A stretch of DNA of 64,000 bases from an uncultured Pelagibacteraceae bacterium (GCA_902616245.1 CACMSB010000006.1:2005-66004), one strand, 5' to 3'; positions 3,059 through 42,847 are shown, counted from the first letter of the stretch. A program made the numbers and translations. Notes: generated by a model not told the origin, from the sequence alone.

Positions 3059-3934
3059 ATGTTTGAAGGTTTTAAGAGCAGATATATAAAAGTAAAAAAA
3101 GGGAAAGTCTTTTGTAAAGTTAAAGGAGAAGGACCACCTTTATTATTACTCCATGGTTACCCCCAAACGCATTTAATGTGGCACAAAACAGCTCCAGAGT
3201 TATCTAAAAGTTTTACAGTGGTTGCAGCAGACCTTAGAGGTTATGGAAATAGTTTGGCACCGTCATCTGATAGTAAGCATTTTAATTATTCAAAAAGAGA
3301 AATGGCAAGTGATATGAAGCAAATGATGGTAAAATTGGGGTATTCTAAATTTTTTGTTGCTGGCCATGATAGGGGCGGAAGAGTTGCTCATAGATTGGCA
3401 AGAGATCATAGAAAAAATGTGCTTGCTCTCAGCGTTTTAGATATTTGTCCAACTTTAGATATGTATGAATTAACAACAAGAGATTTTGCAAAAGCTTACT
3501 TCCATTGGTTTTTCTTAATTCAACCAAAGTGGCTACCAGAAAGAATGATAATGAGTGATCCAAGAAAATGGATGAAGTATTGCTTAGATAAATGGTCTGG
3601 GAATCATAAATTTGGAAAAGTTGAAGAGGGTTATCTAAAGTGCTTTAAGCAACCAAAGAGAATACATGGATCATGTGAGGATTATAGAGCATCTGCAACT
3701 ATTGATCTTGATCATGACAGATACGATCGAAAGAAAAAATTAAATATTCCTGTTCAAGTATTATGGGGAAAAAATGGTGTTATAGGTAAACAATTTAAAC
3801 CTATTAAAATTTGGCAAAAATATTCAAATAAAAAAGTTTTAGGAGTTGCTGTTAAATCTGGACATTTTATACCAGAGCAAAATCCCAAAGAAACAATTAA
3901 ACAATTAAAAAGTTTCTTTTTAAAAAATGCTTAA
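3059..3934 (+). CDS. Alpha/beta-hydrolase, haloacetate (fluoroacetate) dehalogenase type
   Basis: HGYPQT; GHD104R105GGR108; LD128ICPT; YFH149W150; CEDY209RA; GH269FIPE. These are the nucleophile, carboxylate-binding, halide-pocket and base residues of fluoroacetate dehalogenases. Confidence 0.85.
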   Translation: MFEGFKSRYIKVKKGKVFCKVKGEGPPLLLLHGYPQTHLMWHKTAPELSKSFTVVAADLRGYGNSLAPSSDSKHFNYSKREMASDMKQMMVKLGYSKFFVAGHDRGGRVAHRLARDHRKNVLALSVLDICPTLDMYELTTRDFAKAYFHWFFLIQPKWLPERMIMSDPRKWMKYCLDKWSGNHKFGKVEEGYLKCFKQPKRIHGSCEDYRASATIDLDHDRYDRKKKLNIPVQVLWGKNGVIGKQFKPIKIWQKYSNKKVLGVAVKSGHFIPEQNPKETIKQLKSFFLKNA

Positions 3935-4715
3935 AATTATTCCTAATAAAAAAAATATAGGTGCAGAATTAGTCTGTGATTTAAATAAAATTAATAATTC
4001 TACATTAAAAAAAATAAAATCTGCTCTCTCAAAATATGGAATGATTTATTTTAGAAACCAAAAATTAAGCTCTGATCATTATGTAAAATTTGCAAAAAAA
4101 TTTGGAAAACTTGCAAATTATCCAAGACTTAAAGGATTGAATAAAAAATATCCTCAAATAACTGTTGTTCAAAGAAAATCTACAGATAAAGGCCCTAGTT
4201 TTGGTGAGCAATTTCATACTGACTCAATTTATACTAAAAAACCACCTAGATTTACTATGTTACTATCTAAATTAGTTCCAAAAAAAGGTCAGGCAAACAC
4301 AGATTTTTGTTCCCAATATTTAGCTTATGAGAAATTACCAGCAAACTTTAAAAGAAAGTTGAAAGACGAAAAATGTATATTTTCTTCTGAAGGACCCATT
4401 TCTGTAACAAGATTAGAAAGAGAGAAAGAAAAGGGTAAAAAAGCGAAAGAACTTATTTCAAAGCATAAATTAATAAGAAAAATAAATAGTAAATATACTT
4501 TATACTGTAGTCCTGGACACTTTATTCGTTTTAATAACAGCAAAATTGATGAAAAATTAAAAACTTATTTATTTAAACACCAATTAAAAAAAAGTTTTCA
4601 ATATTCTTTAGAATGGGAAAAGAACCAATTAGCCATTTGGGATAACAGATCTATGCTACATCAAGCAACGGCCTTTAAAGGTAATAGAATTATGCATAGA
4701 ATTACTGTCCAATAA
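3927..4715 (+). CDS. TauD/TfdA-family Fe(II)/2-oxoglutarate dioxygenase
   Basis: HxD motif (FHTDS), WDNRSMLH with distal His, RIMHR with the 2OG-binding Arg, N-terminal IGAEL...YFRNQ. Confidence 0.85.
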   Translation: MLKIIPNKKNIGAELVCDLNKINNSTLKKIKSALSKYGMIYFRNQKLSSDHYVKFAKKFGKLANYPRLKGLNKKYPQITVVQRKSTDKGPSFGEQFHTDSIYTKKPPRFTMLLSKLVPKKGQANTDFCSQYLAYEKLPANFKRKLKDEKCIFSSEGPISVTRLEREKEKGKKAKELISKHKLIRKINSKYTLYCSPGHFIRFNNSKIDEKLKTYLFKHQLKKSFQYSLEWEKNQLAIWDNRSMLHQATAFKGNRIMHRITVQ

Positions 4716-6259: not shown

Positions 6260-6336
6260 GGCGGGGTAGCTCAGTTGGTTAGAGCGCGGGACTCATAAGC
6301 CCGAGGTCAGTGGTTCGATCCCACTTCCCGCTACCA
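6260..6336 (+). tRNA. tRNA-Met (CAT), most likely elongator
   Basis: 77-nt cloverleaf: acceptor GGCGGGG/TCCCGCT, D-arm AGCTCAGTTGGTTAGAGC, anticodon loop CTCATAA, T-loop TTCGATC, encoded CCA. G1:U72, G2:C71, C3:G70 and A73, with no C1:A72 mismatch, argue against the initiator. Confidence 0.96.
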
Positions 6337-6864
6337 TCAATGACCAGGAAAATCTAAAAGATTTTCAACTTTATATCCTTTTTTTAAAAGATTATCAGTA
6401 CCACCAAGATCAAACAAATTAATTACAAAAATAAATCCTGCAACCTTGCTTTTTGATATTTCTATTAGTTTAGCTGCAGCTTCAGCAGTACCTCCAGTTG
6501 CAATTAAGTCATCAATAATTAATACATTATCGCTTTCATTAAATGAGTCTTTATGAACTTCAATTGTAGCCGTTCCATATTCTAGCTCAAAATCAACAGA
6601 ATGTACCTCAGCGGGTAGTTTATTTTTTTTTCTTAACATTATAAATGGCTTATCTAAGATGTATGAAATAGCAGAAGCAAATACAAAACCCCTAGATTCT
6701 ACAGCTGCTATTTTATCAAAATTAAATTTTTTTGATCTCTCTACTATTTGATCAATACATTCTTTAAATGCTTTTTCATTTTTTATGAGAGTTGTGATGT
6801 CTCTAAATAGAATTCCCTTTTTAGGATAGTCTTGAATTGATCTAATATGTTCTTTTAAATCCAT
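6337..6864 (-). CDS. apt: Adenine phosphoribosyltransferase
   Basis: DYPKKGILFRDITTL, ESRGF, LEYGTA, PRPP-binding IIDDLIATGGT. Confidence 0.97.
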   Translation of the reverse strand: MDLKEHIRSIQDYPKKGILFRDITTLIKNEKAFKECIDQIVERSKKFNFDKIAAVESRGFVFASAISYILDKPFIMLRKKNKLPAEVHSVDFELEYGTATIEVHKDSFNESDNVLIIDDLIATGGTAEAAAKLIEISKSKVAGFIFVINLFDLGGTDNLLKKGYKVENLLDFPGH

Positions 6865-6872
6865 AAAACTTA

Positions 6873-6880
6873 ATTATAAT
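6873..6880. promoter_or_regulatory. Palindromic ATTATAAT giving a perfect TATAAT -10 box on both strands in the 28-bp apt/mtnP gap
   Basis: TATAAT at 6875-6880 (+) lies 12 nt before the mtnP ATG; TATAAT at 6878-6873 (-) lies 8 nt before the apt ATG. Confidence 0.45.
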
Positions 6881-6892
6881 CTAAAACGTATT

Positions 6893-7762
6893 ATGGCAAA
6901 TAATAAATTAGCAATTATTGGTGGAAGTGGCCTATATGATGTTGAAGAGTTTAAAGATAGAGAAACTTTAGATTTAAACACTCCTTGGGGAAAACCCTCA
7001 GATTTAATATTAAAAGCTGAATATAATAATAAAGAAATTTTTTTTTTACCAAGACATGGAAAAGGTCATTTTATTTCTCCATCAAAAATAAATTTTAGAG
7101 CAAATATAGATGCTCTTAAACAACTAGGTATCACAGATATAGTTTCTGTTTCAGCAGTTGGATCTTTAAAGGAAGATTTGCCTCCAGGTAAATTTGTTAT
7201 CGTTGATCAATTCATTGATAGAACTTTTGCAAGATACAAAACTTTTTTTGATGATGAGATTGTTGCACATGTATCAATGGCACACCCAACTTCAAATGGG
7301 CTGATGAATGCTTGCGAAGATGCTATAAAAAAAGAAAGCATACCTTATCAAAGAGGTGGAACTTATGTTGTAATGGAAGGTCCACAATTTTCTACATTAG
7401 CAGAGTCAAACCTATATAGATCATGGAAAGCAGATGTTATTGGAATGACAAATATGCCAGAAGCTAAACTAGCAAGAGAAGCAGAAATTAGATATGCTTC
7501 AGTTTCAATGGTAACAGATTATGATTGCTGGCATCCAGATCATGAAAATGTTGATGTTCAACAAGTTATAAAAGTACTCTTAGATAATGCAGCGAAAGCA
7601 AAAAACATGATTAAAAATTTGATAGAGAACTTTGAAAATCACATTGATCCTAAGGATCCAACTAATAATTGCTTAGATGTAGCAATAATTACTGCTCCAG
7701 AAAAAAGAACTCAAAAGACTAAAGATAAATTAAAAACAATTGCAGGAAGAGTTCTTACTTAA
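6893..7762 (+). CDS. mtnP: S-methyl-5'-thioadenosine phosphorylase
   Basis: IIGGSGLY, FLPRHG, INFRANI, MEGPQFSTLAES, DVIGMTNMPEAKLAREAE, TDYDCW. Confidence 0.95.
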   Translation: MANNKLAIIGGSGLYDVEEFKDRETLDLNTPWGKPSDLILKAEYNNKEIFFLPRHGKGHFISPSKINFRANIDALKQLGITDIVSVSAVGSLKEDLPPGKFVIVDQFIDRTFARYKTFFDDEIVAHVSMAHPTSNGLMNACEDAIKKESIPYQRGGTYVVMEGPQFSTLAESNLYRSWKADVIGMTNMPEAKLAREAEIRYASVSMVTDYDCWHPDHENVDVQQVIKVLLDNAAKAKNMIKNLIENFENHIDPKDPTNNCLDVAIITAPEKRTQKTKDKLKTIAGRVLT

Positions 7763-8838
7763 TGAAAATTAATGGTGTTAAATATAAAACAATTTGGTTT
7801 GATGAAGAAAAACAGGTTGTAAAAATAATAGATCAAACAAAGCTTCCACATAAGTTTATAATAAAAGAATTAAATTCAGTTAAAGACGCGATAAATGCTA
7901 TAAAAACAATGGAGGTGAGAGGTGCTCCATTAATCGGAGGTACAGCTGCATTTGGATTGGTTTTAGCTATAAAAGAAAATAACAGTTTAGATTTTATAAA
8001 AAAAAGTTCAGAGGAATTAGTTGCATCTAGACCAACAGCAATAAATCTTCAGTGGGCAGTTCATAGAATGAATAACAAATTGTCATTTGTTGAACCTGGA
8101 GATTTATTTAATGTTGCACTCAATGAAGCTAAAGAAATTTGTAAAGAGGATGAGGGATTTTGTGAAAGTATTGGTAAAAATGGATTAAATATTATTGAAG
8201 ATATATATAATAAAAAGAAAGATACTGTCAATATTCTCACACATTGTAATGCAGGTTGGTTAGCTACAATAGATTGGGGAACAGCAACTTCTCCTATTTA
8301 TCATGCACATAAAAAAGGAATACCTATACATGTTTGGGTAGATGAAACTAGACCAAGAAATCAAGGAGCAAACCTTACATCATATGAACTTAATGAAGAA
8401 GAAATTCCAAATACAATTATAGCAGATAATACAGGTGGAATATTAATGCAAAGAGGACAGGTTGATATGTGTATTGTTGGAACAGATAGAACATTATCTA
8501 ACGGAGATGTGTGCAATAAAATTGGAACCTATTTAAAAGCTCTTGCAGCTCATGATAATAAGGTACCTTTTTACGTAGCTTTACCAAGTTCAACGATAGA
8601 TTGGAATTTAAAAAACGCAAAAAATATTCCTATAGAAGAAAGAGATCCAAAAGAACTTTCTCATGTGGATGGAATTAACAAAGATAATAAAGTGGATAAA
8701 GTTTTAATATATCCCGAAAAAAGCAAATCATTAAATTTAGCCTTTGATGTAACACCTGCTAAATATGTTACTGCATTAATAACAGAAAAGGGAGTTTGTG
8801 ATGCTTCTTCTGAGGGTTTAAAAAAGTTATTTAATTAA
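7762..8838 (+). CDS. mtnA: S-methyl-5-thioribose-1-phosphate isomerase
   Basis: MEVRGAPLIG, SRPTAINL, THCNAGWLAT, ETRPRNQGA, GTDR...NKIGTY, AFDVTPAKYV. Confidence 0.95.
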   Translation: MKINGVKYKTIWFDEEKQVVKIIDQTKLPHKFIIKELNSVKDAINAIKTMEVRGAPLIGGTAAFGLVLAIKENNSLDFIKKSSEELVASRPTAINLQWAVHRMNNKLSFVEPGDLFNVALNEAKEICKEDEGFCESIGKNGLNIIEDIYNKKKDTVNILTHCNAGWLATIDWGTATSPIYHAHKKGIPIHVWVDETRPRNQGANLTSYELNEEEIPNTIIADNTGGILMQRGQVDMCIVGTDRTLSNGDVCNKIGTYLKALAAHDNKVPFYVALPSSTIDWNLKNAKNIPIEERDPKELSHVDGINKDNKVDKVLIYPEKSKSLNLAFDVTPAKYVTALITEKGVCDASSEGLKKLFN

Positions 8839-10872
8839 TTATCTTAAAGAAGCTGCAATATTTCCACCGTCAACAGTTAGTACTGCTCCAGTTGATTTTT
8901 TTGATATCGCAAGATGATAAAAAGCTTTGGCCACATCATCTGCTTTAACTTCGCTTAACAGTAAATTGCCACTCATATATTGATCAGTGGTTACTTCTCT
9001 TGCTTTCGCTCTTTGTTTAATCATTTTATCATTTAATAAACCACTTCTAATTCTATCAGCGTTTACACCGTTTGATCTAATACCAAGGTGTCCATAATCA
9101 ACTGCATATTGTTTACATAAATTTAAAAGCGCAGACTTAGGCAATCCATATGGTCCAAAATTTTTACCAGGATTAACTGATTGCTTAGATATATTAAATA
9201 ACAAACATCCATTTATATTTTGTTTTTTCATAATTTTAACAGCCTCTGAAGCACAATTTTGATGTGAGAAAAAATTATCTTCAAAACTTTTTCGAAGTAT
9301 TTCATCATTAACTTCTGCAATTGATCCACCTATAGCAGTGCCTGCATTAGATATTAAAATATCTACACCTCCATATATCTCCAAAATTTTATTAAATGCT
9401 TTTTTTACACTTTGTTTGTCAGTTACATCACAGTGGATACAAAGATCACTTATTTTTGTTTGCAAATCATTTATTTTACTTTTATTAATATCAAGTAAAA
9501 CAACTTCAGCTCCATATTTTTTAAATAATTTATAGGTTGCTTTACCAATTTCGCCTGTGCTACCAGTGATAACAACAACGTTTCCTTGCAATTCTTTTTT
9601 TGCTTTATTTAATTTTGCTTGTTCCAAGGACCAATACTCAACATCAAATAAGTCTTTTTTCGATAAAAATTTATATCTGGATGTTTCCTCAACACTTGAA
9701 ATTACATTGGCATTAGTTTGAGTTAAATCTCCTGCAATTTTTGCAGCTTTTAAGGTATCTCCTACTGTAAATAAACCAAAATTCTGAACTAGAATTACTC
9801 TAGGAGATGTATCAAGCATTACTTTTTTTTCTTTAGTTTTTTTCTTATTAGATTCAAAATATTTTTTATATTTTTGCCTATATTCTTTGAATTTTTTTTC
9901 AGCTAAATTTTTAAATTCATCTAAATTACAGTTTGCTTTTGGTGATATTACTAAAGGAAATGGTTTAACTCTTATAACATGATCAGGTGTAGCTGTACCT
10001 TCATTTGAGTATCTATTTATATCTTTACCATTAATAAAATAATCTAACTTACTATTTTTTTTAAAATTTATGATAAATTTGTTATCATTTTTTTCAGATA
10101 AAAGACCTCTCAATATAGGAGCTATATCTGCAGTTGAGAAATTAAATTTAGTTTTCTTTATCTGTTTTATTTTTTTCTTTTTTAGTTTGGTTAAAGTTTT
10201 TTCAGCATCAGATATATACTTTATCATTAAACTGTAAGCATCTTTTGCATTATCAGCAAATGTGAAAATACCGTGGTTTAATAAAATCAAACAATTTATA
10301 TTTGGATTTTTAGAATAAACTTCATTTATTTTTTGTGCTAATTTAAATCCTGGCATTACATATGGCACTATTGCAGTTTTTTTACCAAATATTTTTTTTG
10401 ATAAGATTTCTCCATTTGGTCTATTAGTGATTTTCATAATTGCATCAGAATGAGTGTGATCAACAAATTTTAACGGTAAAAATGCGTGTAAAAAAGTTTC
10501 AACTGATGGATTGGGAGATTTTGTATCTATTAAATTTTTTTTTTGAAAAGCAACCATGTCATCATCAGAGAGAGTTTTCTTTTTTTTCATAGTTAGCAAT
10601 GGATTTAATTTAACTGCTGGCAAACCCGCTGGTTCAATTTCCGCCATATCCCATCCGCTGCCTTTTACGCAAAGAACATCATAATATTTACCATCTATAT
10701 CCTTGATTTTTGTCTTAACTGATGTATTTCCACCACCATGCAATACCAATTCTGGATTTCTTCCTAGAAGCCTAGTTGTATAAACTCTTAGAGCCATATC
10801 CTCAGAATGACCTAATTTTTTATACTTTTTTATGTATTTTTTAGCTTCGTTATCTGACCAATTGTTTTTCAA
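8839..10872 (-). CDS. Bifunctional class II aldolase / short-chain dehydrogenase (RhaD/RhaEW-like fusion)
   Basis: N-domain GGGNTSVK, PSVETFLH, DHTH and NHG (Zn ligands). C-domain TGSTGEIG, NAG and YGLPK (SDR). TTG start with a GAGG SD. Confidence 0.88.
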   Translation of the reverse strand: MKNNWSDNEAKKYIKKYKKLGHSEDMALRVYTTRLLGRNPELVLHGGGNTSVKTKIKDIDGKYYDVLCVKGSGWDMAEIEPAGLPAVKLNPLLTMKKKKTLSDDDMVAFQKKNLIDTKSPNPSVETFLHAFLPLKFVDHTHSDAIMKITNRPNGEILSKKIFGKKTAIVPYVMPGFKLAQKINEVYSKNPNINCLILLNHGIFTFADNAKDAYSLMIKYISDAEKTLTKLKKKKIKQIKKTKFNFSTADIAPILRGLLSEKNDNKFIINFKKNSKLDYFINGKDINRYSNEGTATPDHVIRVKPFPLVISPKANCNLDEFKNLAEKKFKEYRQKYKKYFESNKKKTKEKKVMLDTSPRVILVQNFGLFTVGDTLKAAKIAGDLTQTNANVISSVEETSRYKFLSKKDLFDVEYWSLEQAKLNKAKKELQGNVVVITGSTGEIGKATYKLFKKYGAEVVLLDINKSKINDLQTKISDLCIHCDVTDKQSVKKAFNKILEIYGGVDILISNAGTAIGGSIAEVNDEILRKSFEDNFFSHQNCASEAVKIMKKQNINGCLLFNISKQSVNPGKNFGPYGLPKSALLNLCKQYAVDYGHLGIRSNGVNADRIRSGLLNDKMIKQRAKAREVTTDQYMSGNLLLSEVKADDVAKAFYHLAISKKSTGAVLTVDGGNIAASLR

Positions 10873-10960
10873 TGTTTAACCTCAATAAATTATTATAATA
10901 GTTTTTTGTTTGAAAGAAGTAAAAAATTTCGTTAGTTAAAAAAACATATATTAGATTCTT

Positions 10961-12001
10961 ATGGAAAAAGTTGGGGAACATATAACACTGGATATAGTTG
11001 GAACTAAAAAGGAATATACTCCCGAATTTTATGAAAAGTTAGTTTATAAAATTGCTAAAGCAGCAAAAGTAACAGTTCTAAAAATATCTAAATATAAATT
11101 TGAGCCACAAGGATTTACATTGGTCGCTTTGCTTGCTGAAAGCCACATTAGTTTTCATACTTTCCCAGAAAAAGAAATTGTAAGCTTTGATTTTTTTACA
11201 TGTGGAAAAGTATCACCAAAAGTTTCTCTAGATATAATAAAAGATGAGATGGAACACACAAATATCATCATTAAAGAATTTAATAGAGATACTATTGATC
11301 TTTATCATGACAATTATAGTTCTCCAGGTTTAAAAAAATCATATGTTGTTAATAGAGTTTTAGAAAATTTTAAATCTAAAGTAGGTCAATATATTGAAAT
11401 ACTTGATTTAGAACAATTTGGAAAAGCTTTATTTATTGATAATGAAATACAAGTAGCTGAAAGTGATGAACATTTATATAGCTCAACCTTTGTAAATTCA
11501 GGTCTTAATTTAAATTCGAAAAAAGAAAAAGCTGCAATTATTGGTGGAGGTGATGGTGGTGTAGCAAGAGAATGCATTTCACAAAACTTTGGCTTTATAG
11601 ATTGGTATGAATTAGATCCTGAAGTTGTGGATGTGTGTGATAAACACCTAAGTAAAATTGGTGAGAAGGCCACAGAAAAGAATTCAGTTAAATGCGTTTG
11701 GGGAGATGCTTTTGAAAGTATTAAATCTGTCAAAGATAATACTTATGATCAAATATTTGTAGATCTGAATGATGATCAATTTTGTATAGATCTGGCTGCA
11801 AAAAATATGTCATCTTTAGAAAGAATTTTAAAACCTAAAGGTGTAATTACCGCTCAAGTAGGAAGCCAAGACAAAAAACCAAAACAAGTTGAAAATTGGT
11901 TAAATGTTTTTAACAAAAATTTTGGAAATACAAAACTTTCAAGAGTTTATATACCAAGTTTCGATTGTTCTTGGAATTTTTCCTCGTCAATAAATCATTA
12001 A
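10961..12001 (+). CDS. S-adenosylmethionine decarboxylase proenzyme fused to spermidine synthase (SpeD-SpeE fusion)
   Basis: N-domain LLAE|SHISFHTFPE (pyruvoyl self-cleavage) and FFTCG. C-domain FGKALFID, IGGGDGG, ELDPEVV, DAFE, IFVD, YIPSF...W. Confidence 0.9.
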   Translation: MEKVGEHITLDIVGTKKEYTPEFYEKLVYKIAKAAKVTVLKISKYKFEPQGFTLVALLAESHISFHTFPEKEIVSFDFFTCGKVSPKVSLDIIKDEMEHTNIIIKEFNRDTIDLYHDNYSSPGLKKSYVVNRVLENFKSKVGQYIEILDLEQFGKALFIDNEIQVAESDEHLYSSTFVNSGLNLNSKKEKAAIIGGGDGGVARECISQNFGFIDWYELDPEVVDVCDKHLSKIGEKATEKNSVKCVWGDAFESIKSVKDNTYDQIFVDLNDDQFCIDLAAKNMSSLERILKPKGVITAQVGSQDKKPKQVENWLNVFNKNFGNTKLSRVYIPSFDCSWNFSSSINH

Positions 12002-12059
12002 TTTTTCTTTTTAAAACAATAATTTTATGAAATAATCTTTAAAATTTTTGGAGGAAAAA

Positions 12060-12887
12060 ATGAAAAAATTAAAAGTATTAGGACTTGGTATTTTAATATC
12101 ATCATTTCTAACAATTTCTTCAATTGCAGATCAAATTAAAATAGGAACTGAAGGTGCATATCCGCCTTGGAATTCTAAAGATTCAGCTGGAAATTTGATT
12201 GGCTTTGAAGTCGAATTAGCAAATGAATTATGCAAAATTATGAATCATGATTGCACAATTGTAGAGCAAGACTGGGATGGAATGATACCAGCTTTGGTTT
12301 CAAGAAAATTTGATGCCATCATGGCTGGAATGTCAATAACTGGTGAGAGAATGAAAACAATAAATTTTTCTCAAGGTTATGCTGATGAAGTTGCATCATT
12401 AGCTGTTATGAAAGGATCAAAAAACGAAGGTCTTAAAACAATGTCAGCTATAAATTTATCTGACGTAAGTGCTGATGAACAAGCAACACTAGATGTTTTG
12501 ACTAAAGCATTTAAAGGTAAAACTATTGGTGTACAAACAGCAACAATTCACCAGAACTTCCTAGAGTCTGGTTTAATGGGTAATGTAAAAATAAGAACTT
12601 ACAAAACTCAAGATGAAGTTAACTTGGATTTATCTGCTGGTAGAATAGATGCAGCACTAGCTGCAGCAGTTGCTTTTACGGATTATGCAGAAAAATCTGG
12701 TAAAGGAGTTGTATTAACTGGACCAACATTTGCAGGTGGAGATTTTGGTAATGGTGTTGGAGTAGGTATTAGAAAAGGTGACTCTAAACTTTTAAATGAT
12801 TTTAATGCAGCAATTGATAAAGCTAGAGATGATGGCATTATCAGTAAGCTTGCTATAAAACATTTTGGTTTTGACGCTTCTATGTAA
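12060..12887 (+). CDS. Polar (basic) amino acid ABC transporter substrate-binding protein (HisJ/ArgT/OccT-like)
   Basis: Signal peptide, IGTEGAYPPWN, EQDWDGMIPAL..RKFDAIMAGMSITGER. GGAGG SD at 12050-12054 favours the ATG at 12060. Confidence 0.9.
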   Translation: MKKLKVLGLGILISSFLTISSIADQIKIGTEGAYPPWNSKDSAGNLIGFEVELANELCKIMNHDCTIVEQDWDGMIPALVSRKFDAIMAGMSITGERMKTINFSQGYADEVASLAVMKGSKNEGLKTMSAINLSDVSADEQATLDVLTKAFKGKTIGVQTATIHQNFLESGLMGNVKIRTYKTQDEVNLDLSAGRIDAALAAAVAFTDYAEKSGKGVVLTGPTFAGGDFGNGVGVGIRKGDSKLLNDFNAAIDKARDDGIISKLAIKHFGFDASM

Positions 12888-12897
12888 TAAATTATTT

Positions 12898-12923
12898 ATG
12901 GGTGGCTATAATTAGCCACCTAT
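12898..12923 (+). promoter_or_regulatory. Intercistronic stem-loop between SBP and permease genes
   Basis: ATGGGTGGCTA-TAAT-TAGCCACCTAT: 11-bp stem with one G:U; ends 3 nt before the permease ATG; no U-tract. Confidence 0.65.
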
Positions 12924-12926
12924 ATT

Positions 12927-13619
12927 ATGGAACTTCTATATTTTGGTGATAAAGGTTGGGGAGACGAGTTATTCTTTGCAACCTTAATGACAATTGCGGT
13001 TTCAATAACCGCAATGATAATAGGCTTTATATTTGCTGCCTTATTTACTCCATTAAAATTATCTAATAACAAATTTCTTAATTCTATTGGTAATGCTTAC
13101 ACCACTGTTATTAGAGGTGTGCCTGAGCTACTAGTAATTTATTTATTTTTCTTTGGTGGAAGTGGAGCAATTATGTTTGTTGCTTCAATATTTGGTTATA
13201 ATGATTATATTGAAATTAATGCTTTTTTAACTGGTTCTTTTTCAATAGGGATAATATCGGGAGCATATTCAACTGAGGTATTTAGAGGAGCCCTACAATC
13301 AATTGATAAGGGTCAGTTCGAAGCTGCAAAAGTTTTAGGTTTTAATAAATATATTTACTTCTTTAAAATTATTTTGCCTCAAATGCTTAGACTAGCAATT
13401 CCAAACTTAAGTAATGTTTGGCAAATTACTTTAAAAGATACTTCTCTTATTTCTGTAACAGGTTTGGTTGAAATAATGAGACAATCTTATATCGCTGCCG
13501 GCTCAACTAGAGATCCATTATTTTTTTACTCATTTGCAGCAGTTCTATACTTAATGCTTACATTTTTAAGTATGCAATTATTAAATAGATTAGAAACAAA
13601 ATATAGCAAAGGTTATTAA
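12927..13619 (+). CDS. Polar amino acid ABC transporter permease (HisQ/OccQ-like)
   Basis: YTTVIRGVPELL, AYSTEVFRGA, EAA motif GQFEAAKVLG, LKDTSLIS. Confidence 0.92.
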   Translation: MELLYFGDKGWGDELFFATLMTIAVSITAMIIGFIFAALFTPLKLSNNKFLNSIGNAYTTVIRGVPELLVIYLFFFGGSGAIMFVASIFGYNDYIEINAFLTGSFSIGIISGAYSTEVFRGALQSIDKGQFEAAKVLGFNKYIYFFKIILPQMLRLAIPNLSNVWQITLKDTSLISVTGLVEIMRQSYIAAGSTRDPLFFYSFAAVLYLMLTFLSMQLLNRLETKYSKGY

Positions 13620-14296
13620 TGGATATTGAATTAATGATAAATAGTTTTCCTAAGTTGTTAAACGCAACTTTGATTACTCTTAAACTATTATCTGTATCTC
13701 TAATTCTTGGTCTTTTTATTGGATTAGGTTTTGCAATCTTGAGAATGAATAATAATAAGTTGATTAATAAATTTGCTTACGGGTATTCATATATTTTTAG
13801 AGGAACACCTTTATTGGTTCAAATCTTCATAATATATTTTGGATTAGGTCAAATTGAATATTTAAGAACAACAATTTTATGGGTAGTTTTAAAAGAACCA
13901 TACTGGTGTGCGATAATTGCATTTTCATTAAATACTGGGGCTTATACTTCAGAAATATTGAGATCAGCTTTTCAAACTATAAAACCAGGATATTTAGAAG
14001 CTGGAAGAAGCCTAGGGATACCTTCAAAAATTATTTTTACAAAAATACAAATTCCTATTGCAATTAAACAATCTTTACCAGCGTATGGTAATGAAATTAT
14101 TTTAATGCTCAAAGGTACATCTTTGGCAAGTACAGTCACACTTATGGACTTAACTGGTGTTGCTAAATATATAATTTCAACAACTTTTAAGCCTGTCGAG
14201 GTATTTATTGTGGCAGGAGGTATTTACTTGTTTATGACTTTTATAATCCATAATGTAATTAAATATTTAGAAAAAAAATATGGATTTCAAACATGA
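13619..14296 (+). CDS. Polar amino acid ABC transporter permease (HisM/OccM-like)
   Basis: FRGTPLLVQ, LNTGAYTSEILR, LEAGRSLG, LKGTSLAS. Confidence 0.92.
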   Translation: MDIELMINSFPKLLNATLITLKLLSVSLILGLFIGLGFAILRMNNNKLINKFAYGYSYIFRGTPLLVQIFIIYFGLGQIEYLRTTILWVVLKEPYWCAIIAFSLNTGAYTSEILRSAFQTIKPGYLEAGRSLGIPSKIIFTKIQIPIAIKQSLPAYGNEIILMLKGTSLASTVTLMDLTGVAKYIISTTFKPVEVFIVAGGIYLFMTFIIHNVIKYLEKKYGFQT

Positions 14297-15078
14297 AAAT
14301 AGCATGCATACAATTATCTAGTGGAGAAAATTATGAAAGTAATTTCAAAGATATTCTTAAATACGTAAATCAAGCTATAAAAAATAAATCTGATTTAATT
14401 ATTACACCTGAAACCTCTTCTTTGATGTCCAGTAGTAGAGAAACACTGTTTAAATATTCATTTGAAATGAATAAAGATCCAATTTTGAAAAAAATTAAAG
14501 AAGTTTCAAAAAAATTTAAGAAATGGATTTTACTTGGATCAATTTGCGTTAAGGTTAAAAATAAACTTAGAAATAGATCTATACTGGTTGGACCGAATGG
14601 AAAAATTGTTAAATATTATGATAAAATTAATATGTTTGATGTTAAAATTCCAAATAAAGAGCAACATAAGGAAAGTAAAACTTTTAAAGCAGGAAATAAA
14701 TTAGTCACCGCCAATTTACCTTGGGGTAAAATAGGTTTTACAATTTGTTATGATCTCAGATTCCCAGAACTTTACAGAAATTTATCTAAAAAAAATCTAA
14801 GTTTTATTGCTGTTCCGTCAGCTTTTACAAAGTTTACTGGACAAAAACATTGGTTAACTCTTTTAAGAGCAAGAGCGATTGAAAATTTTTGTTATATATT
14901 TGCACCAGCTCAAACAGGTAAAAATACTCCAAAAAGAGAAACATTTGGTCATACAGTAATTATTTCACCGGATGGAAAAATATTGGCACTAAAAAAATTA
15001 GGCAAAGGAGTGATATATTCAAAAATTAATCCTAAGCTCTCTATGGATTTAAGAAAAATAATACCAAGTTTAATTTAA
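14293..15078 (+). CDS. Carbon-nitrogen hydrolase, Nit1/YafV (deaminated-glutathione amidase)-like
   Basis: Glu-Lys-Cys triad (PET, YDK, ICYDLRFPEL); AFT..TG..HW..LLRARAIEN; FGHT. Confidence 0.82.
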   Translation: MKIACIQLSSGENYESNFKDILKYVNQAIKNKSDLIITPETSSLMSSSRETLFKYSFEMNKDPILKKIKEVSKKFKKWILLGSICVKVKNKLRNRSILVGPNGKIVKYYDKINMFDVKIPNKEQHKESKTFKAGNKLVTANLPWGKIGFTICYDLRFPELYRNLSKKNLSFIAVPSAFTKFTGQKHWLTLLRARAIENFCYIFAPAQTGKNTPKRETFGHTVIISPDGKILALKKLGKGVIYSKINPKLSMDLRKIIPSLI

Positions 15079-16523: not shown

Positions 16524-16637
16524 ATTTACTTAATTTTTTTACATAAGAGTCAAATAAGCAAATGATTAAATTAGATACCTGATATGAAATAAATGGGTTT
16601 TATTGTGATAACATATAATTTAAACAGTTAATTGATC

Positions 16638-17360
16638 ATGACTTATTGTATTGGCATTAAAACAGAGACCGGATTAGTATTTGCATCAGACTCTAGAACA
16701 AACGCTGGACTTGATAATGTAAATATATACTCCAAAATGCTAACACATGATGTTGGGGATAGATCAATTGTAATTGTCACTTCAGGAAATCTTGGAACTT
16801 CCCAGGCAGTTTATAATTCAATAAAAAAAGATTTAAAAAGTGAAACAGGTATTATGAATTTAAATACATGCAGTGATTTTGAGCAAATTGCTTCGTATAT
16901 AGGCTCCTTAAATATTGAGCATTCTTCACCTCAAGGCATTAATACTGATAGTGTTTTACTAGGCTCAACCTTTATTGTTGGTGGTCAAATAAAAGATCAA
17001 CTACCACAATTATATTTAGTTTACCCGCAAGGTAATTATATTCGTCCAGCAGATAGCAAACCATATTTAGTTATAGGAGAAGTGAAATATGGGAAACCTA
17101 TTTTAGATAGAGTAATCACACCAAAAGTCTCAATTGGCGATGCATCGAGATGCGCACTGATATCAATGGACTCTACATTAAAAAGTGATCTAACAGTTGG
17201 ACCGCCTATAGACTTTGCTGTTATCAAAAAAGATGAAATCAAAATAGCATCACTTAAATGCTTAAATATGAATGACCCTGAATTTTCCAAAGTTTGTAAT
17301 CAGTGGTCGCAAGGTATTTTTAAGATATTTGACTCTTTTCAAAGGTTTGACTGGGAATAA
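16638..17360 (+). CDS. Anbu proteasome-type (Ntn) peptidase
   Basis: M-T1YCIG...D17SRTNAG.D...K32 triad; GQI...P.LYLVYPQGN.I; QIGE.KYGKPILDR-like segment; ALISMDST..S.L.VGPP.D. Confidence 0.92.
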   Translation: MTYCIGIKTETGLVFASDSRTNAGLDNVNIYSKMLTHDVGDRSIVIVTSGNLGTSQAVYNSIKKDLKSETGIMNLNTCSDFEQIASYIGSLNIEHSSPQGINTDSVLLGSTFIVGGQIKDQLPQLYLVYPQGNYIRPADSKPYLVIGEVKYGKPILDRVITPKVSIGDASRCALISMDSTLKSDLTVGPPIDFAVIKKDEIKIASLKCLNMNDPEFSKVCNQWSQGIFKIFDSFQRFDWE

Positions 17361-42799: not shown

Positions 42800-42847
42800 A
42801 CTATATATATGGCAATGATTAAATATTTTTAAATGAGTAAATTAGAC

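What the first reader, a model, noticed from the sequence alone, without database searches (positions are those of the whole stretch)
6337..12001. Possible self-contained MTA / 5'-deoxyadenosine recycling loop whose last step is a fused aldolase-dehydrogenase
Seen: apt, mtnP, mtnA, a class II aldolase-SDR fusion and a SpeD-SpeE fusion sit back to back; mtnA and the fusion have abutting stop codons. There are no rhamnose/fucose genes and no mtnB/C/D in the window. Known: SpeE makes MTA; MtnP gives adenine (salvaged by Apt) plus MTR-1-P; MtnA gives MTRu-1-P. In the DHAP shunt a stand-alone class II aldolase cleaves (methylthio- or 5-deoxy-)ribulose-1-P to DHAP plus an aldehyde. RhaEW-type fusions couple such cleavage to aldehyde oxidation. 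Inferred: this RhaD-like fusion is a repurposed MTRu-1-P / 5-deoxyribulose-1-P aldolase that also converts the methylthioacetaldehyde or acetaldehyde. That would recover carbon and adenine and release a small organosulfur compound, which matters for a lineage dependent on reduced sulfur.
Basis: partly seen in the sequence, partly recalled or inferred. Interest (0 to 1): 0.82.

Follow-up and report, generated by a model that had tools for sequence, protein, structure and literature searches.

The report
SAR11 MTA-recycling cluster with aldolase-dehydrogenase fusion
A Pelagibacter (SAR11) gene cluster makes and then breaks down the SAM by-product methylthioadenosine, and its last enzyme is an uncharacterised aldolase-dehydrogenase fusion that sits directly behind the MTA-recycling genes in many other Alphaproteobacteria, so it probably defines an undescribed version of the 'DHAP shunt'.

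Summary
Window 6337-12001 encodes apt(-), mtnP(+), mtnA(+), a 677-aa class II aldolase-SDR fusion(-) and a SpeD-SpeE fusion(+). The mtnA and fusion stop codons abut, and the 64-kb window has no rhamnose/fucose or mtnB/C/D genes.

The fusion is not a RhaEW equivalog: it scores 444 bits against the TIGR02632 cutoff of 568. It belongs to a separate clade, NCBIfam NF006192, which has no assigned function. All catalytic residues of both domains are intact.

- In SAR11 contigs, speDE flanks the fusion in 44/44 cases and mtnA lies downstream in at least 49/61.
- In 73 informative species genomes of other Alphaproteobacteria (plus one Gemmatimonadota), 28 have mtnA or mtnP immediately upstream on the same strand, often as mtnP-apt-mtnA-fusion. 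Nine more link the fusion to mtnK-mtnA, a ribose-type ABC transporter and an MtnR-like regulator.
- No sugar-catabolism genes recur nearby.

Most likely the fusion replaces Ald2/DrdA as the aldolase of a DHAP-shunt variant and removes the aldehyde with NAD(H).

No enzymology exists. The direction of the SDR step, the switch in C4 stereochemistry and the genome-wide absence of mtnBCD are untested. I found no paper describing this. I rate it a new variant of a known kind.

The parts
6337..6864 (-). apt, adenine phosphoribosyltransferase (175 aa). It salvages the adenine released by MtnP.
   Evidence: NCBIfam NF002636, 212.9 bits (cutoff 125); TIGR01090, 201.5 bits (cutoff 185.85). apt lies between mtnP and mtnA in the same unit in 9 non-SAR11 species: L026, L027, L032, L039, L041, L045, L053 and L080, plus L061 where the unit lies 5.7 kb upstream of the fusion. 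It is next to mtnP in SAR11 contigs.
6865..6892 (.). 28-bp divergent intergenic region between apt and mtnP
   Evidence: Read directly from the sequence. No Rfam element. The promoter scan was not above shuffled expectation.
6893..7762 (+). mtnP, 5'-methylthioadenosine phosphorylase (289 aa): MTA (or 5'-deoxyadenosine) + Pi -> adenine + MTR-1-P (or 5-deoxyribose-1-P)
   Evidence: NF006492, 441.8 bits (cutoff 437); TIGR01694, 310.4 bits (cutoff 274.85); Pfam PNP_UDP_1.
7762..8838 (+). mtnA, methylthioribose-1-phosphate isomerase (358 aa): MTR-1-P -> MTRu-1-P. Its start overlaps the mtnP stop by 1 nt.
   Evidence: TIGR00512, 412.4 bits (cutoff 279); NF004326, 448 bits; Pfam IF-2B.
10183..10872 (-). 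Fusion, residues 1-230: class II (metal-dependent) aldolase domain of the RhaE type. Proposed to cleave MTRu-1-P / 5-deoxyribulose-1-P to DHAP plus an aldehyde.
   Evidence: Pfam Aldolase_II, 78.9 bits. PDB 3m4r matches at E = 2e-48 by sequence and TM 0.93 by fold. The phosphate loop GGGNTS (46-51), KGSG (70-73), PSxE with E125, and metal ligands H139/H141/H200 are conserved across 83 family members.
9598..10182 (-). Fusion, residues 231-425: linker/middle domain with no Pfam family. It is well folded in the model and conserved in the whole RhaEW-like superfamily.
   Evidence: AlphaFold2 pLDDT is about 88-98 across this segment. Conserved columns R255, G292, P296, Y335, P357, G366, E412 and K420. 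No Pfam hit.
8839..9597 (-). Fusion, residues 426-677 plus stop: classical NAD-type short-chain dehydrogenase domain. Proposed to convert 2-methylthioacetaldehyde / acetaldehyde.
   Evidence: Pfam adh_short_C2, 121 bits, and adh_short, 109 bits. TGSTGEIG at 436-443, Asp461 at the end of beta-2 (NAD preference), S562, and Y575-x3-K579. Foldseek matches NAD(H) SDRs at TM 0.82-0.91.
10873..10960 (.). 88-bp divergent intergenic region shared by the fusion and speDE. This pairing is invariant in SAR11.
   Evidence: Sequence. speDE lies divergently upstream of the fusion in 44/44 informative SAR11 contigs, and in L001 and L002.
10961..12001 (+). SpeD-SpeE fusion (346 aa): SAM decarboxylase plus aminopropyltransferase. 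It is the local source of MTA.
   Evidence: Pfam AdoMet_dc, 89.9 bits; Spermine_synt_N; Spermine_synth, 84.6 bits. TIGR03330, 92.6 bits (cutoff 75.65). The SAR11 SpeE is described as a characterised multidomain gene fusion in PMC8437039.

Best explanation
The cluster is a compact module that produces and disposes of MTA.

Proposed pathway:
1. SpeD-SpeE makes spermidine-type polyamines and releases MTA. Radical-SAM enzymes elsewhere release 5'-deoxyadenosine.
2. MtnP phosphorolyses these to adenine plus (methylthio- or 5-deoxy-)ribose-1-P. Apt recaptures the adenine.
3. MtnA isomerises the sugar phosphate to the ribulose-1-P form.
4. The 677-aa fusion carries out the last dedicated steps. Its N-terminal metal-dependent class II aldolase domain cleaves the ribulose-1-P into DHAP plus 2-methylthioacetaldehyde (or acetaldehyde). 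Its C-terminal NAD-type SDR domain immediately converts that aldehyde.

By analogy with RhaW, the only characterised relative, the SDR most likely oxidises the aldehyde to 2-(methylthio)acetate or acetate, with gain of NADH. I put this at about 60:40 against reduction to methylthioethanol or ethanol. Either way the conversion pulls the reversible aldol cleavage forward and keeps a reactive aldehyde from escaping.

This is a variant of the DHAP shunt in which a RhaE-type aldolase fused to a dehydrogenase replaces the stand-alone Ald2/DrdA aldolase. The same enzyme clade does this job in many Alphaproteobacteria, fed either through MtnP or through MtnK.

Shown: gene identities, intact catalytic motifs, membership of a clade separate from RhaEW, conserved linkage to mtn genes, and transcription in seawater.

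Inferred: the substrate, the aldol cleavage itself, the direction and product of the SDR step, and the fate of the sulfur.
For: **Identity**
- apt, mtnP and mtnA reach equivalog level.
- The fusion scores 909 bits on NF006192 (cutoff 639) but only 444 on the RhaEW equivalog TIGR02632 (cutoff 567.75).
- Its 39-64% identical relatives behave the same way. True RhaEW representatives (P0175, P0199) pass TIGR02632 and form a separate clade.

**Catalytic competence**
- E125, H139, H141 and H200 in the aldolase domain, and TGxxxGxG, D461, S562, Y575 and K579 in the SDR domain, are all conserved.
- The AF2 model has pLDDT 95.9. The folds match a class II aldolase domain (3m4r, TM 0.93) and NAD(H) SDRs.

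**Linkage within SAR11** (80 metagenome contigs, 72-96% identity)
- speDE lies upstream in 44/44 informative contigs.
- mtnA lies downstream in 49/61. It abuts the fusion in 21 and sits behind a 0.2-2.6 kb variable insert in 28.
- mtnP and apt follow mtnA.

**Linkage outside SAR11** (80 GTDB species loci)
- 22 have mtnA and 6 have mtnP immediately upstream on the same strand, with gaps of 10-173 bp and overlapping stop/start codons in L080.
- 9 carry apt in the same unit.
- 9 have an MtnR-like regulator and fusion, a ribose-type ABC transporter, mtnK (TIGR01767, 499 bits against a cutoff of 275) and mtnA.
- 5 more have mtnA or mtnP within 10 kb.
- Total: 42 of 73 informative loci. About 0.02-0.04 immediate adjacencies would be expected by chance.
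- The same rhizobial architecture is annotated independently in Brucella anthropi pOANT04 and a Pararhizobium plasmid.
- The regulator is 31% identical over its full length to E. coli YjhU/MtnR, the DHAP-shunt repressor (PMC12632272).

**Evolutionary pattern**
- Architectures with and without mtn neighbours are interleaved on the protein tree. Linkage is therefore ancestral, and the unlinked loci are not a paralog group.
- Nothing recurrent follows the fusion in the operonic loci, so it is the terminal step.
- No rhamnose or fucose genes occur among recurrent neighbours.

**Precedent for coupled chemistry**
- RhaEW converts rhamnulose-1-P to DHAP plus lactate with NAD+. It shows no activity with NADH and forms no DHAP without NAD+ (PMC3870299).

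**Expression**
- Seawater metatranscriptome contigs at 95% identity or better cover all five genes.

**Gap in the field**
- A 2026 review describes only the stand-alone Ald2 and says the enzyme acting on 2-methylthioacetaldehyde is unknown (PMC13474568).
Against: - There is no biochemical or genetic datum for any member of this clade.
- The characterised relative, RhaE, cleaves L-rhamnulose-1-P (3R,4S). MTRu-1-P and 5-deoxyribulose-1-P are 3R,4R, like fuculose-1-P (PMC6079011). A different C4 stereopreference must therefore be assumed.
- The aldolase domain has no detectable pairwise similarity to FucA-, RhaD- or MtnB-type chains in the PDB. The assignment rests on context, not on homology to Ald2/DrdA.
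- In 31 of 73 informative species loci no mtn gene lies within 10 kb (for example Xanthobacteraceae and Reyranella).
- In SAR11 the fusion is convergent to mtnA, so the two are not co-transcribed. Unrelated genes are often inserted between them, and at least some lineages (L001, L138) have lost the adjacency.
- Absence of mtnB/C/D or a stand-alone Ald2 from the rest of the genome could not be tested. A 2026 preprint scores KEGG 'methionine salvage' as complete or nearly complete (>=98%) in 135 Pelagibacter genomes without listing the KOs.
- No SAM-responsive riboswitch marks the locus.
- Contig depth in metatranscriptomes is only weak evidence of expression.
Confidence: 0.7

Rival explanations
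1. The fusion is an aldolase/dehydrogenase for a different pentulose-1-phosphate made by the same upstream enzymes. For example, D-ribulose-1-P from nucleoside or ribose catabolism would be cleaved to DHAP plus glycolaldehyde, which the SDR would oxidise to glycolate. MTA and 5'-deoxyadenosine would be at most side substrates.
For: - Rhizobial loci carry a ribose-type ABC transporter (RbsB/RbsC/RbsA-like, all far below their cutoffs) next to mtnK-mtnA.
- Methionine-salvage enzymes are known to be promiscuous towards ribose derivatives (PMC6302742).
- RhaW's native substrate is an alpha-hydroxy aldehyde, which resembles glycolaldehyde more than methylthioacetaldehyde.
Against: - The phosphorylase, kinase and isomerase all score as equivalogs of MTA phosphorylase, MTR kinase and MTR-1-P isomerase.
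- In SAR11 the invariant partner is the MTA-producing SpeDE.
- apt is embedded in the unit, which fits an adenine-releasing substrate.
Confidence: 0.1
2. The N-terminal domain is not an aldolase here. It would act as an MtnB-like dehydratase or epimerase on MTRu-1-P, since MtnB is also an Aldolase_II-fold enzyme, and the SDR would process the product. That would give an unknown methionine-regenerating route instead of a DHAP shunt.
For: - MtnB dehydratases share the class II aldolase fold and metal site (Pfam PF00596; PMC6079011, describes an aldolase-fold fusion in plant methionine salvage).
- A lineage that depends on reduced sulfur would benefit from regenerating methionine.
- A preprint scores methionine salvage as complete or nearly complete in Pelagibacter.
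Against: [quoted passage not shown]
- There is no sequence similarity to MtnB-type chains in the PDB.
- No MtnC, MtnD or transaminase genes travel with the fusion in any of about 160 loci.
Confidence: 0.07
3. The fusion is an ordinary RhaEW, that is, rhamnulose-1-P aldolase plus lactaldehyde dehydrogenase, as JGI annotates it. Its position next to the mtn genes would be coincidental.
For: - JGI names some members 'rhamnose utilization protein RhaD'.
- Same domain architecture as RhaEW and 29-35% identity to it.
Against: - It scores below the TIGR02632 cutoff (444 against 567.75) and below NF006189 (429 against 634).
- It forms a separate clade from RhaEW.
[quoted passage not shown] Yet no rhaA, rhaB, rhaM or rhamnose transporter occurs in the window or among recurrent neighbours.
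Confidence: 0.03
4. The linkage is a historical accident of conserved alphaproteobacterial gene order (petABC, mtnP, apt, mtnA, the fusion, and downstream housekeeping genes) and carries no functional meaning. The fusion would then have an unrelated, unknown role.
For: - In several loci the block lies among housekeeping genes: cytochrome bc1, ychF, pth, L25 and PRPP synthetase.
- 31 of 73 loci lack the linkage.
Against: - At least four different architectures keep the fusion with mtn genes: mtnP-apt-mtnA-fusion, mtnP-fusion, regulator-fusion/ABC/mtnK-mtnA on plasmids, and the inverted SAR11 form with speDE.
- Gaps are operon-like and stop/start codons overlap.
- The unit is also present in a Gemmatimonadota genome (L080).
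Confidence: 0.05

Closest known systems
DHAP shunt for MTA and 5'-deoxyadenosine: MtnP or MtnN/MtnK, MtnA and Ald2 in Rhodospirillum rubrum, Rhodopseudomonas palustris and ExPEC E. coli; DrdK/DrdI/DrdA in Bacillus thuringiensis
   Same: - Same first steps, with equivalog-level MtnP or MtnK and MtnA.
- A metal-dependent class II-fold aldolase gene is clustered directly behind mtnA.
- In the rhizobial form there is an MtnR-family (SorC-type) regulator and a transporter, as in E. coli.
- The expected products are DHAP plus 2-methylthioacetaldehyde or acetaldehyde.
   Different: - The aldolase is not an Ald2/DrdA ortholog. It belongs to the RhaE branch, which shows no pairwise similarity to FucA-, RhaD- or MtnB-type chains.
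- It is fused, through a roughly 200-aa middle domain, to an NAD-type SDR.
- In the known shunt the aldehyde-converting enzyme is separate and still unidentified (PMC13474568).
- In SAR11 the MTA-producing SpeDE and apt are part of the same cluster.
RhaEW (YuxG / Caur_2283; TIGR02632), bifunctional L-rhamnulose-1-phosphate aldolase / L-lactaldehyde dehydrogenase
   Same: - Same three-part architecture: class II aldolase, middle domain and SDR.
- Same catalytic residues and the same NAD-type cofactor signature.
- 29-35% identity overall.
- It is a precedent for obligatorily coupled aldol cleavage and NAD+-dependent aldehyde oxidation.
   Different: - Separate clade and below the equivalog cutoff.
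- Clade-specific motif changes: LHGGGN against VWGGGN; NPSVE against RPSIE; GPYGLPK against GAYSxxK; VNADRI against NPDAVF.
- Never found in rha loci.
- The proposed substrate has the opposite C4 configuration and a thioether or methyl tail.
PDB 3m4r, N-terminal class II aldolase domain of a conserved Thermoplasma acidophilum protein (function unknown)
   Same: It is the only solved structure with sequence similarity to the aldolase domain: E = 2e-48, 38% identity and TM 0.93.
   Different: It is a structural-genomics fragment with no assigned function, from an archaeon. It gives no information on substrate or on the SDR half.
Universal methionine salvage pathway (MtnP/MtnK, MtnA, MtnB, MtnC, MtnD, transaminase)
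   Same: Shares MtnP and MtnA, and the substrate MTRu-1-P.
   Different: - No mtnB, mtnC or mtnD in the window or beside the fusion in any fetched locus.
- The proposed route gives DHAP and a C2 thioether, not methionine.
SpeD-SpeE (AdoMetDC-aminopropyltransferase) gene fusions
   Same: Same two domains in the same order. The SAR11 enzyme is cited as a characterised multidomain fusion with a broad substrate range (PMC8437039).
   Different: Nothing about the enzyme itself is new. What has not been described is its invariant divergent pairing with the aldolase-SDR gene in SAR11.

Membership tests
Class II (metal-dependent) aldolase / adducin-head superfamily (Pfam PF00596) | Significant match to the family profile, and the fold | tested here: met
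   Aldolase_II scores 78.9 bits against a gathering score of 22.2. The AF2 model superposes on the class II aldolase domain of 3m4r at TM 0.93 and rmsd 2.0.
Class II (metal-dependent) aldolase / adducin-head superfamily (Pfam PF00596) | Three His metal ligands (HxH plus a distal H), a catalytic Glu, and phosphate-binding Gly/Ser/Asn loops | tested here: met
   H139, H141, H200, E125, GGGNTS (46-51), KGSG (70-73) and PS (122-123) are at least 90% conserved in 83 sequences. Their assignment as ligands is by analogy with FucA, from my own knowledge.
Classical short-chain dehydrogenase/reductase (SDR) | TGxxxGxG cofactor motif, Ser-Tyr-Lys catalytic residues, and an acidic residue at the end of beta-2 for NAD(H) preference | tested here: met
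   TGSTGEIG at 436-443, D461 (invariant in the 83-sequence alignment A2), S562 and Y575-x3-K579. adh_short_C2 scores 121 bits. Foldseek hits are NAD(H) SDRs.
NCBIfam NF006192 (PRK08324.1-6), bifunctional aldolase/short-chain dehydrogenase, no specific function named | Full-length score above the curated cutoff | tested here: met
   909 bits against a cutoff of 639, matching residues 1-677 to profile positions 1-685 of 685.
RhaEW (TIGR02632 / NF006189) | Score above the equivalog cutoff | tested here: not met
   TIGR02632 scores 444.4 against 567.75, and NF006189 scores 429.3 against 634. True RhaEW representatives P0175 (642) and P0199 (600) pass.
RhaEW (TIGR02632 / NF006189) | Encoded within rhamnose (rha) gene loci | tested here: not met
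   Rodionova et al. state that RhaEW orthologs are always in rha loci. No rha genes occur in the 64-kb window or among recurrent neighbours in 80 + 80 loci.
RhaEW (TIGR02632 / NF006189) | Cleaves L-rhamnulose-1-P and oxidises L-lactaldehyde with NAD+ | not testable with these tools
   This requires an enzyme assay.
DHAP shunt (MTA / 5'-deoxyadenosine salvage) | MtnP, or MtnN plus MtnK, producing MTR-1-P | tested here: met
   mtnP reaches equivalog level in the window. mtnK reaches equivalog level in rhizobial loci, and is annotated as such.
DHAP shunt (MTA / 5'-deoxyadenosine salvage) | MtnA isomerase clustered with the aldolase | tested here: met
   mtnA abuts the fusion in the window. It is immediately upstream on the same strand in 22 other species.
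DHAP shunt (MTA / 5'-deoxyadenosine salvage) | Aldolase orthologous to Ald2/DrdA (the stand-alone FucA-like class II aldolase) | tested here: not met
   phmmer of the aldolase domain against all PDB chains at E <= 10 returns only 3m4r, with no FucA-, RhaD- or MtnB-type chain. The domain is fused and belongs to the RhaE branch. I made no direct comparison with an Ald2 sequence.
DHAP shunt (MTA / 5'-deoxyadenosine salvage) | Cleavage of MTRu-1-P / 5-deoxyribulose-1-P to DHAP plus aldehyde | not testable with these tools
   This requires an enzyme assay or labelled-MTA tracing.
Universal methionine salvage pathway | MtnB dehydratase, MtnC enolase-phosphatase and MtnD dioxygenase present | tested here: inconclusive
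   They are absent from the 64-kb window and from all flanks examined. The rest of the roughly 1.3-Mb genome could not be read. The preprint's 'methionine salvage complete or nearly complete (>=98%)' is not broken down by KO.
SpeD-SpeE fusion | AdoMet decarboxylase and aminopropyltransferase domains in one polypeptide | tested here: met
   AdoMet_dc at 7-109, Spermine_synt_N at 116-167 and Spermine_synth at 170-340 in one 346-aa ORF. The same 346-aa gene is called in L001 and L002.

The most novel reading that the evidence does not exclude
SAR11, the most abundant bacterial lineage in the ocean, and a wide range of soil and freshwater Alphaproteobacteria run an unrecognised, oxidative version of the DHAP shunt. 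A single RhaE-type aldolase-SDR protein would turn MTRu-1-P into DHAP, NADH and 2-(methylthio)acetate, and 5-deoxyribulose-1-P into DHAP plus acetate. This would identify the long-missing enzyme that handles methylthioacetaldehyde. It would also predict a previously unreported organosulfur metabolite, methylthioacetate. That compound would either be excreted as a sulfur loss and a public good, or be processed further to methanethiol, for example by acyl-CoA ligase/Dmd-like enzymes or by the TfdA/TauD-like dioxygenases that follow the fusion in Reyranella-type loci.
Probability: 0.35. Interest if true: 0.82.

Novelty: new variant of a known kind. Interest (0 to 1): 0.72.

Why it matters
MTA and 5'-deoxyadenosine are unavoidable, inhibitory by-products of SAM chemistry. 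How the most abundant marine bacteria dispose of them, and what becomes of the sulfur in a lineage that cannot reduce sulfate, has not been described in the literature I could search.

The data give a function to a large and currently unnamed enzyme clade (NCBIfam NF006192). That clade is found in SAR11, Rhizobiales, Rhodospirillales, Reyranella and others.

They also extend the DHAP shunt to a non-orthologous, fused aldolase, and they offer a concrete candidate for the shunt's unidentified aldehyde-converting step.

The model predicts either methylthioacetate or methylthioethanol as a marine metabolite. It can be tested directly with standard enzymology in tractable relatives, such as Brucella anthropi pOANT04 and Mesorhizobium.

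Tried and rejected
- **Riboswitches.** The Rfam gathering scan of the window found only tRNA-Met. In six operonic or rhizobial loci it found only an unrelated FMN riboswitch. There is no SAM-linked RNA evidence.
- **Promoters and terminators.** Promoter-like sites were fewer than in shuffles (24 against 36 +/- 6). The terminator-like sites all lie inside genes. I drew no conclusion from this scan.
- **Homology to solved class II aldolases.** phmmer at E <= 10 gave only 3m4r. The full-length Foldseek list is swamped by SDRs. I did not run a domain-only fold search, because fold-search output has no residue-level alignments and would not settle specificity.
- **A conserved gene after the fusion that could reveal the product's fate.** Nothing recurrent turned up: a glyoxalase-like domain in 4 loci, housekeeping genes and unknowns.
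- **A TauD/TfdA link.** The window's TauD-family gene (3927-4715) is only about 21% identical to the TauD-family genes that follow the fusion in Reyranella-type loci. It is not conserved beside the cluster in SAR11 contigs. I rejected it as part of the SAR11 system and kept it as a note.
- **Clade-discriminating residues.** A strict column filter gave only 5 positions. Motif-level differences are clearer, but I could not map them in 3D because the model coordinates are not exposed.
- **Genome-wide absence of mtnB/C/D or ald2.** This was not possible.
- **The preprint supplement.** It lists only KOs rescued at a relaxed threshold, so it does not settle the question.
- **Literature.** North et al. 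2020 (Mol Microbiol) is not held. Searches for SAR11 + DHAP shunt, 5-deoxyribose + aldolase + SDR, and methylthioacetate + MTA gave nothing relevant.
- **Gene calling.** Greedy ORF calling in high-GC loci produced spurious antisense ORFs. Synteny counts therefore rest on tblastn.

Full report
**1. What is in the sequence**

The window has about 30% GC. It comes from NCBI assembly GCA_902539835.1, contig CACBKI010000001.1. The closest named homologs of its proteins are from Candidatus Pelagibacter.

Between 6337 and 12001 there are five back-to-back genes, identified as follows:
- apt, 6337-6864 (-), at equivalog level.
- mtnP, 6893-7762 (+): NF006492, 442 bits against 437; TIGR01694, 310 against 275.
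- mtnA, 7762-8838 (+): TIGR00512, 412 against 279.
- A 677-aa protein, 8839-10872 (-): a class II aldolase domain (residues 31-217), an unassigned middle region, and a classical SDR domain (431-670).
- A SpeD-SpeE fusion, 10961-12001 (+).

The stop codons of mtnA and the fusion abut exactly, as TAA|TTA at 8836-8841. The layout is <apt | mtnP> mtnA> | <fusion | speDE>. That makes several transcription units, not one operon.

Pfam or NCBIfam calls covering the whole window show no rhamnose or fucose genes, no second class II aldolase, no ARD cupin and no enolase-phosphatase. The only HAD protein resembles phosphoglycolate phosphatase.

**2. What the fusion is, and what it is not**

It scores 909 bits on NCBIfam NF006192, against a cutoff of 639. 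That model carries only the generic name 'bifunctional aldolase/short-chain dehydrogenase'. It scores 444 bits on TIGR02632, the RhaEW equivalog, whose cutoff is 567.75.

An exhaustive search of 1.84 billion representative proteins found a large superfamily.
- The relatives at 39-64% identity behave like the query: NF006192 or NF006195 is their best hit, and they fall below the RhaEW cutoff.
- Representatives at about 30-35% identity include true RhaEW proteins that pass TIGR02632, and two further unnamed subfamilies.
- On a neighbour-joining tree the query's clade is separate from the RhaEW clade.

All catalytic features are intact and conserved:
- Aldolase domain: phosphate loops GGGNTS and KGSG, PSxE with E125, and metal ligands H139, H141 and H200.
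- SDR domain: TGxxxGxG, Asp461 at the end of beta-2 (the signature of NAD preference), S562 and Y575-x3-K579.

The clade has its own motif variants relative to RhaEW: LHGGGN against VWGGGN, NPSVE against RPSIE, GPYGLPK against GAYSxxK, and VNADRI against NPDAVF.

An AlphaFold2 model built on 83 sequences is very confident, with pLDDT 95.9 and pTM 0.93. In the PDB its aldolase half matches only 3m4r, an uncharacterised archaeal class II aldolase domain, at TM 0.93. Its C-terminal half matches NAD(H)-dependent SDRs. No full-length structure exists.

By sequence the aldolase domain matches no FucA-, RhaD- or MtnB-type chain, even at E <= 10. It is therefore a deep branch of the class II aldolase fold and not an ortholog of the stand-alone Ald2/DrdA aldolases.

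**3. The synteny test within SAR11**

I fetched eighty marine metagenome contigs that encode 72-96% identical fusions and scored them by tblastn with the window's own proteins.
- speDE lies divergently upstream of the fusion in 44 of 44 contigs with enough upstream sequence.
- mtnA lies convergently downstream in 49 of 61 contigs with enough downstream sequence. It abuts the fusion in 21 and sits behind a 0.2-2.6 kb insert in 28. mtnP and apt follow mtnA.
- The inserts are a mix of unrelated genes: TrpB-like PALP enzyme, DUF1015, GFA, SMR, BKACE, CoA-binding protein, enoyl-CoA hydratase, GNAT and MOSC. The convergent junction is thus a variable insertion spot.
- A few lineages have lost the adjacency altogether: L001 and L138.

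Within SAR11, then, the invariant partner of the fusion is the MTA-producing enzyme, and the MTA-consuming genes are nearly always nearby.

**4. The synteny test outside SAR11**

An alignment of 19 clade members, led by a non-Pelagibacter sequence, retrieved 80 species-representative genome loci. They come from Xanthobacteraceae, Stellaceae, Reyranella, Rhizomicrobium, Rhodospirillales, Kiloniellales, Ferrovibrio, Mesorhizobium/Rhizobium/Chelativorans, one Gemmatimonadales and one Verrucomicrobiae.

By tblastn:
- 22 loci have mtnA immediately upstream of the fusion on the same strand.
- 6 loci have mtnP immediately upstream of the fusion on the same strand. Gaps across these 28 loci are 10-173 bp.
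- 9 species carry mtnP-apt-mtnA as one unit. In L080 the stop and start codons overlap.
- 9 loci show a second architecture: a SorC-type regulator followed by the fusion, then a divergent ribose-type ABC transporter, then mtnK (TIGR01767, 499 bits against 275) and mtnA.
- 5 more loci have mtnA or mtnP within 10 kb.
- In total that is 42 of 73 informative loci. Immediate adjacency of two given genes would be expected by chance in about 0.02-0.04 of 73 genomes.

The rhizobial architecture is independently annotated on Brucella anthropi plasmid pOANT04 and on a Pararhizobium plasmid. Its regulator is 31% identical over its full length to E. coli YjhU/MtnR, the repressor of the E. coli DHAP-shunt operon (PMC12632272).

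On a tree of the fusion proteins, loci with and without mtn neighbours are interleaved. Linkage is therefore ancestral for the clade and was lost in some lineages. The unlinked genes are not a separate paralog.

Recurrent other neighbours are housekeeping genes: cytochrome bc1, RNase E, YchF, PRPP synthetase, Pth and L25. None is a sugar-catabolic gene. Nothing recurrent follows the fusion, so it is the terminal gene of the unit.

**5. Mechanism**

The known DHAP shunt converts MTA and 5'-deoxyadenosine in three steps. MtnP, or MtnN plus MtnK, acts first, then MtnA, then a stand-alone class II aldolase (Ald2/DrdA). The products are DHAP plus 2-methylthioacetaldehyde or acetaldehyde (PMC10986504, PMC6079011, PMC13474568).

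In the loci studied here, the gene that occupies the aldolase position is the fusion. The best-supported reading is that its aldolase domain performs this cleavage and its SDR domain immediately converts the aldehyde.

The only characterised relatives are RhaEW of Chloroflexus aurantiacus and Bacillus subtilis. They convert rhamnulose-1-P to DHAP plus lactate with NAD+, show no activity with NADH, and form no DHAP without NAD+ (PMC3870299). That is a tightly coupled cleavage and oxidation.

With the NAD-type Asp conserved, I favour oxidation to 2-(methylthio)acetate or acetate, at about 60:40 over reduction to methylthioethanol or ethanol. The reductive route is the one seen in E. coli and R. 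rubrum.

Apt inside the unit fits recapture of adenine. In SAR11, SpeDE next door supplies the MTA. Seawater metatranscriptome contigs cover all five genes at 95% identity or better.

Gene identities, motif integrity, clade separation and linkage are shown. Substrate, chemistry, SDR direction and sulfur fate are inferred.

**6. Caveats**

- No member of this clade has been assayed.
- L-rhamnulose-1-P is 3R,4S. The ribulose-1-P substrates are 3R,4R, like fuculose-1-P (PMC6079011). The clade must therefore read C4 differently from RhaE.
- 31 of 73 loci lack mtn neighbours.
- In SAR11 the fusion is not co-transcribed with mtnPA.
- No riboswitch or other regulatory signal ties the locus to SAM.
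- I could not read the rest of the genome, so I cannot say whether MtnB/C/D or a stand-alone Ald2 exist elsewhere.
[quoted passage not shown] Its supplement does not resolve this.

**7. Rivals**

- A different pentulose-1-P substrate, such as D-ribulose-1-P giving glycolaldehyde: about 0.10.
- An MtnB-like, non-aldolase chemistry that feeds an unknown methionine route: about 0.07.
- Historical linkage with no functional meaning: about 0.05.
- An ordinary RhaEW: about 0.03.

The evidence for and against each is in the rival entries.

**8. Comparison with what is known, and novelty**

The system works like a DHAP shunt but fails one membership criterion, because its aldolase is not an Ald2/DrdA ortholog. 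It shares architecture with RhaEW but fails two RhaEW criteria: the equivalog score and the rha-locus context.

- NCBIfam (June 2026) gives the clade no specific name.
- The July 2026 review of the pathway knows only Ald2 and calls the aldehyde-converting enzyme unknown.
- Full-text searches found nothing linking SAR11 or this fusion to the DHAP shunt.
- North et al. 2020 could not be read, so prior mention in a survey figure or supplement cannot be excluded.
- The SpeD-SpeE fusion itself is already known (PMC8437039).

I rate the finding a new variant of a known kind, with an interest score of 0.72. It assigns a testable function to a large unnamed enzyme clade. It proposes the missing aldehyde-handling step of the shunt. 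And it bears on sulfur and carbon economy in the ocean's most abundant heterotroph.

Noticed in passing
window 6260-6336 (+): A tRNA-Met (anticodon CAT) ends one base before the 3' end of apt. Metatranscriptome contigs break here into different flanking sequences (loose ends at 6260 and 6336/6337). This suggests that the gene order beyond the tRNA varies between SAR11 strains.
   Followed up: partly
L089, L094, L121, L126, L132, L135 and others, between the fusion's stop and mtnA: In SAR11 the convergent fusion|mtnA junction is a hotspot for insertion of 0.2-2.6 kb of unrelated cargo: TrpB-like PALP enzyme plus DUF1015, GFA, SMR/EmrE, BKACE, CoA-binding protein plus enoyl-CoA hydratase, GNAT and MOSC. 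The window has the 'empty' state, with abutting stop codons.
   Followed up: partly
window 3927-4715 (+); L034 12091-13029, L051, L056, L040, L043, L044: A TauD/TfdA-family dioxygenase (114 bits against the taurine dioxygenase cutoff of 313) lies 1.6 kb beyond apt. In Reyranella-type genomes a TauD-family gene, an aldo-keto reductase and an amidohydrolase directly follow the fusion. A TfdA-like hydroxylation of methylthioacetate would give methanethiol plus glyoxylate. However, the two dioxygenases are only about 21% identical, and the SAR11 one is not conserved beside the cluster.
   Followed up: partly
L166 (Brucella anthropi pOANT04) 8765-14186; L167 16452-21883; L060: In some rhizobial replicons mtnK-mtnA is followed by a split transketolase and a RuBisCO-like protein. 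This suggests a second fate for MTRu-1-P in the same cluster that carries the aldolase-SDR fusion. These genes are absent from Mesorhizobium-type loci and from SAR11.
   Followed up: partly
L058 7108-8901 (-), and 5 similar loci: An acyl-CoA synthetase (NF006020, 929 bits, with weak similarity to the 3-(methylthio)propionyl-CoA ligase DmdB) is divergently transcribed from the MtnR-like regulator and fusion pair in Mesorhizobium-type loci. It could activate a carboxylate product such as methylthioacetate or acetate.
   Followed up: no
window 12048-15078 (+): A Lys/Arg/Orn-type amino-acid ABC transporter lies next to speDE. Its substrate-binding protein scores 231.6 bits on TIGR01096, just below the cutoff of 256, and it has two permeases. 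It travels with speDE in most SAR11 contigs, so it may supply a polyamine precursor. It is followed by a CN-hydrolase that matches deaminated-glutathione amidase and N-carbamoylputrescine amidase models only below their cutoffs.
   Followed up: partly
window 15075-17360: A circularly permuted ATP-grasp protein (CP_ATPgrasp_1/2) sits next to a proteasome-subunit-like gene, an Anbu-type pairing.
   Followed up: no
window 11386-11733 (-): A 115-aa ORF antisense within speDE. It has a TTG start, a Ser/Pro-rich low-complexity translation, and is not called in related contigs. It is almost certainly spurious.
   Followed up: no
window 42137-46370 (-): Methylcitrate-cycle genes (PrpD-like, PEP-mutase/PrpB-like and citrate-synthase-like) lie next to an alternative oxidase (AOX) gene.
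   Followed up: no
bioRxiv 10.64898/2026.04.03.716430: The preprint states that KEGG 'methionine salvage' is complete or nearly complete (>=98%) in all 135 Pelagibacter genomes. Its held supplement lists K00772 (mtnP) and K08963 (mtnA) among threshold-rescued KOs, with no entry for mtnB, mtnC or mtnD. It is worth checking whether the module was scored without those steps.
   Followed up: partly
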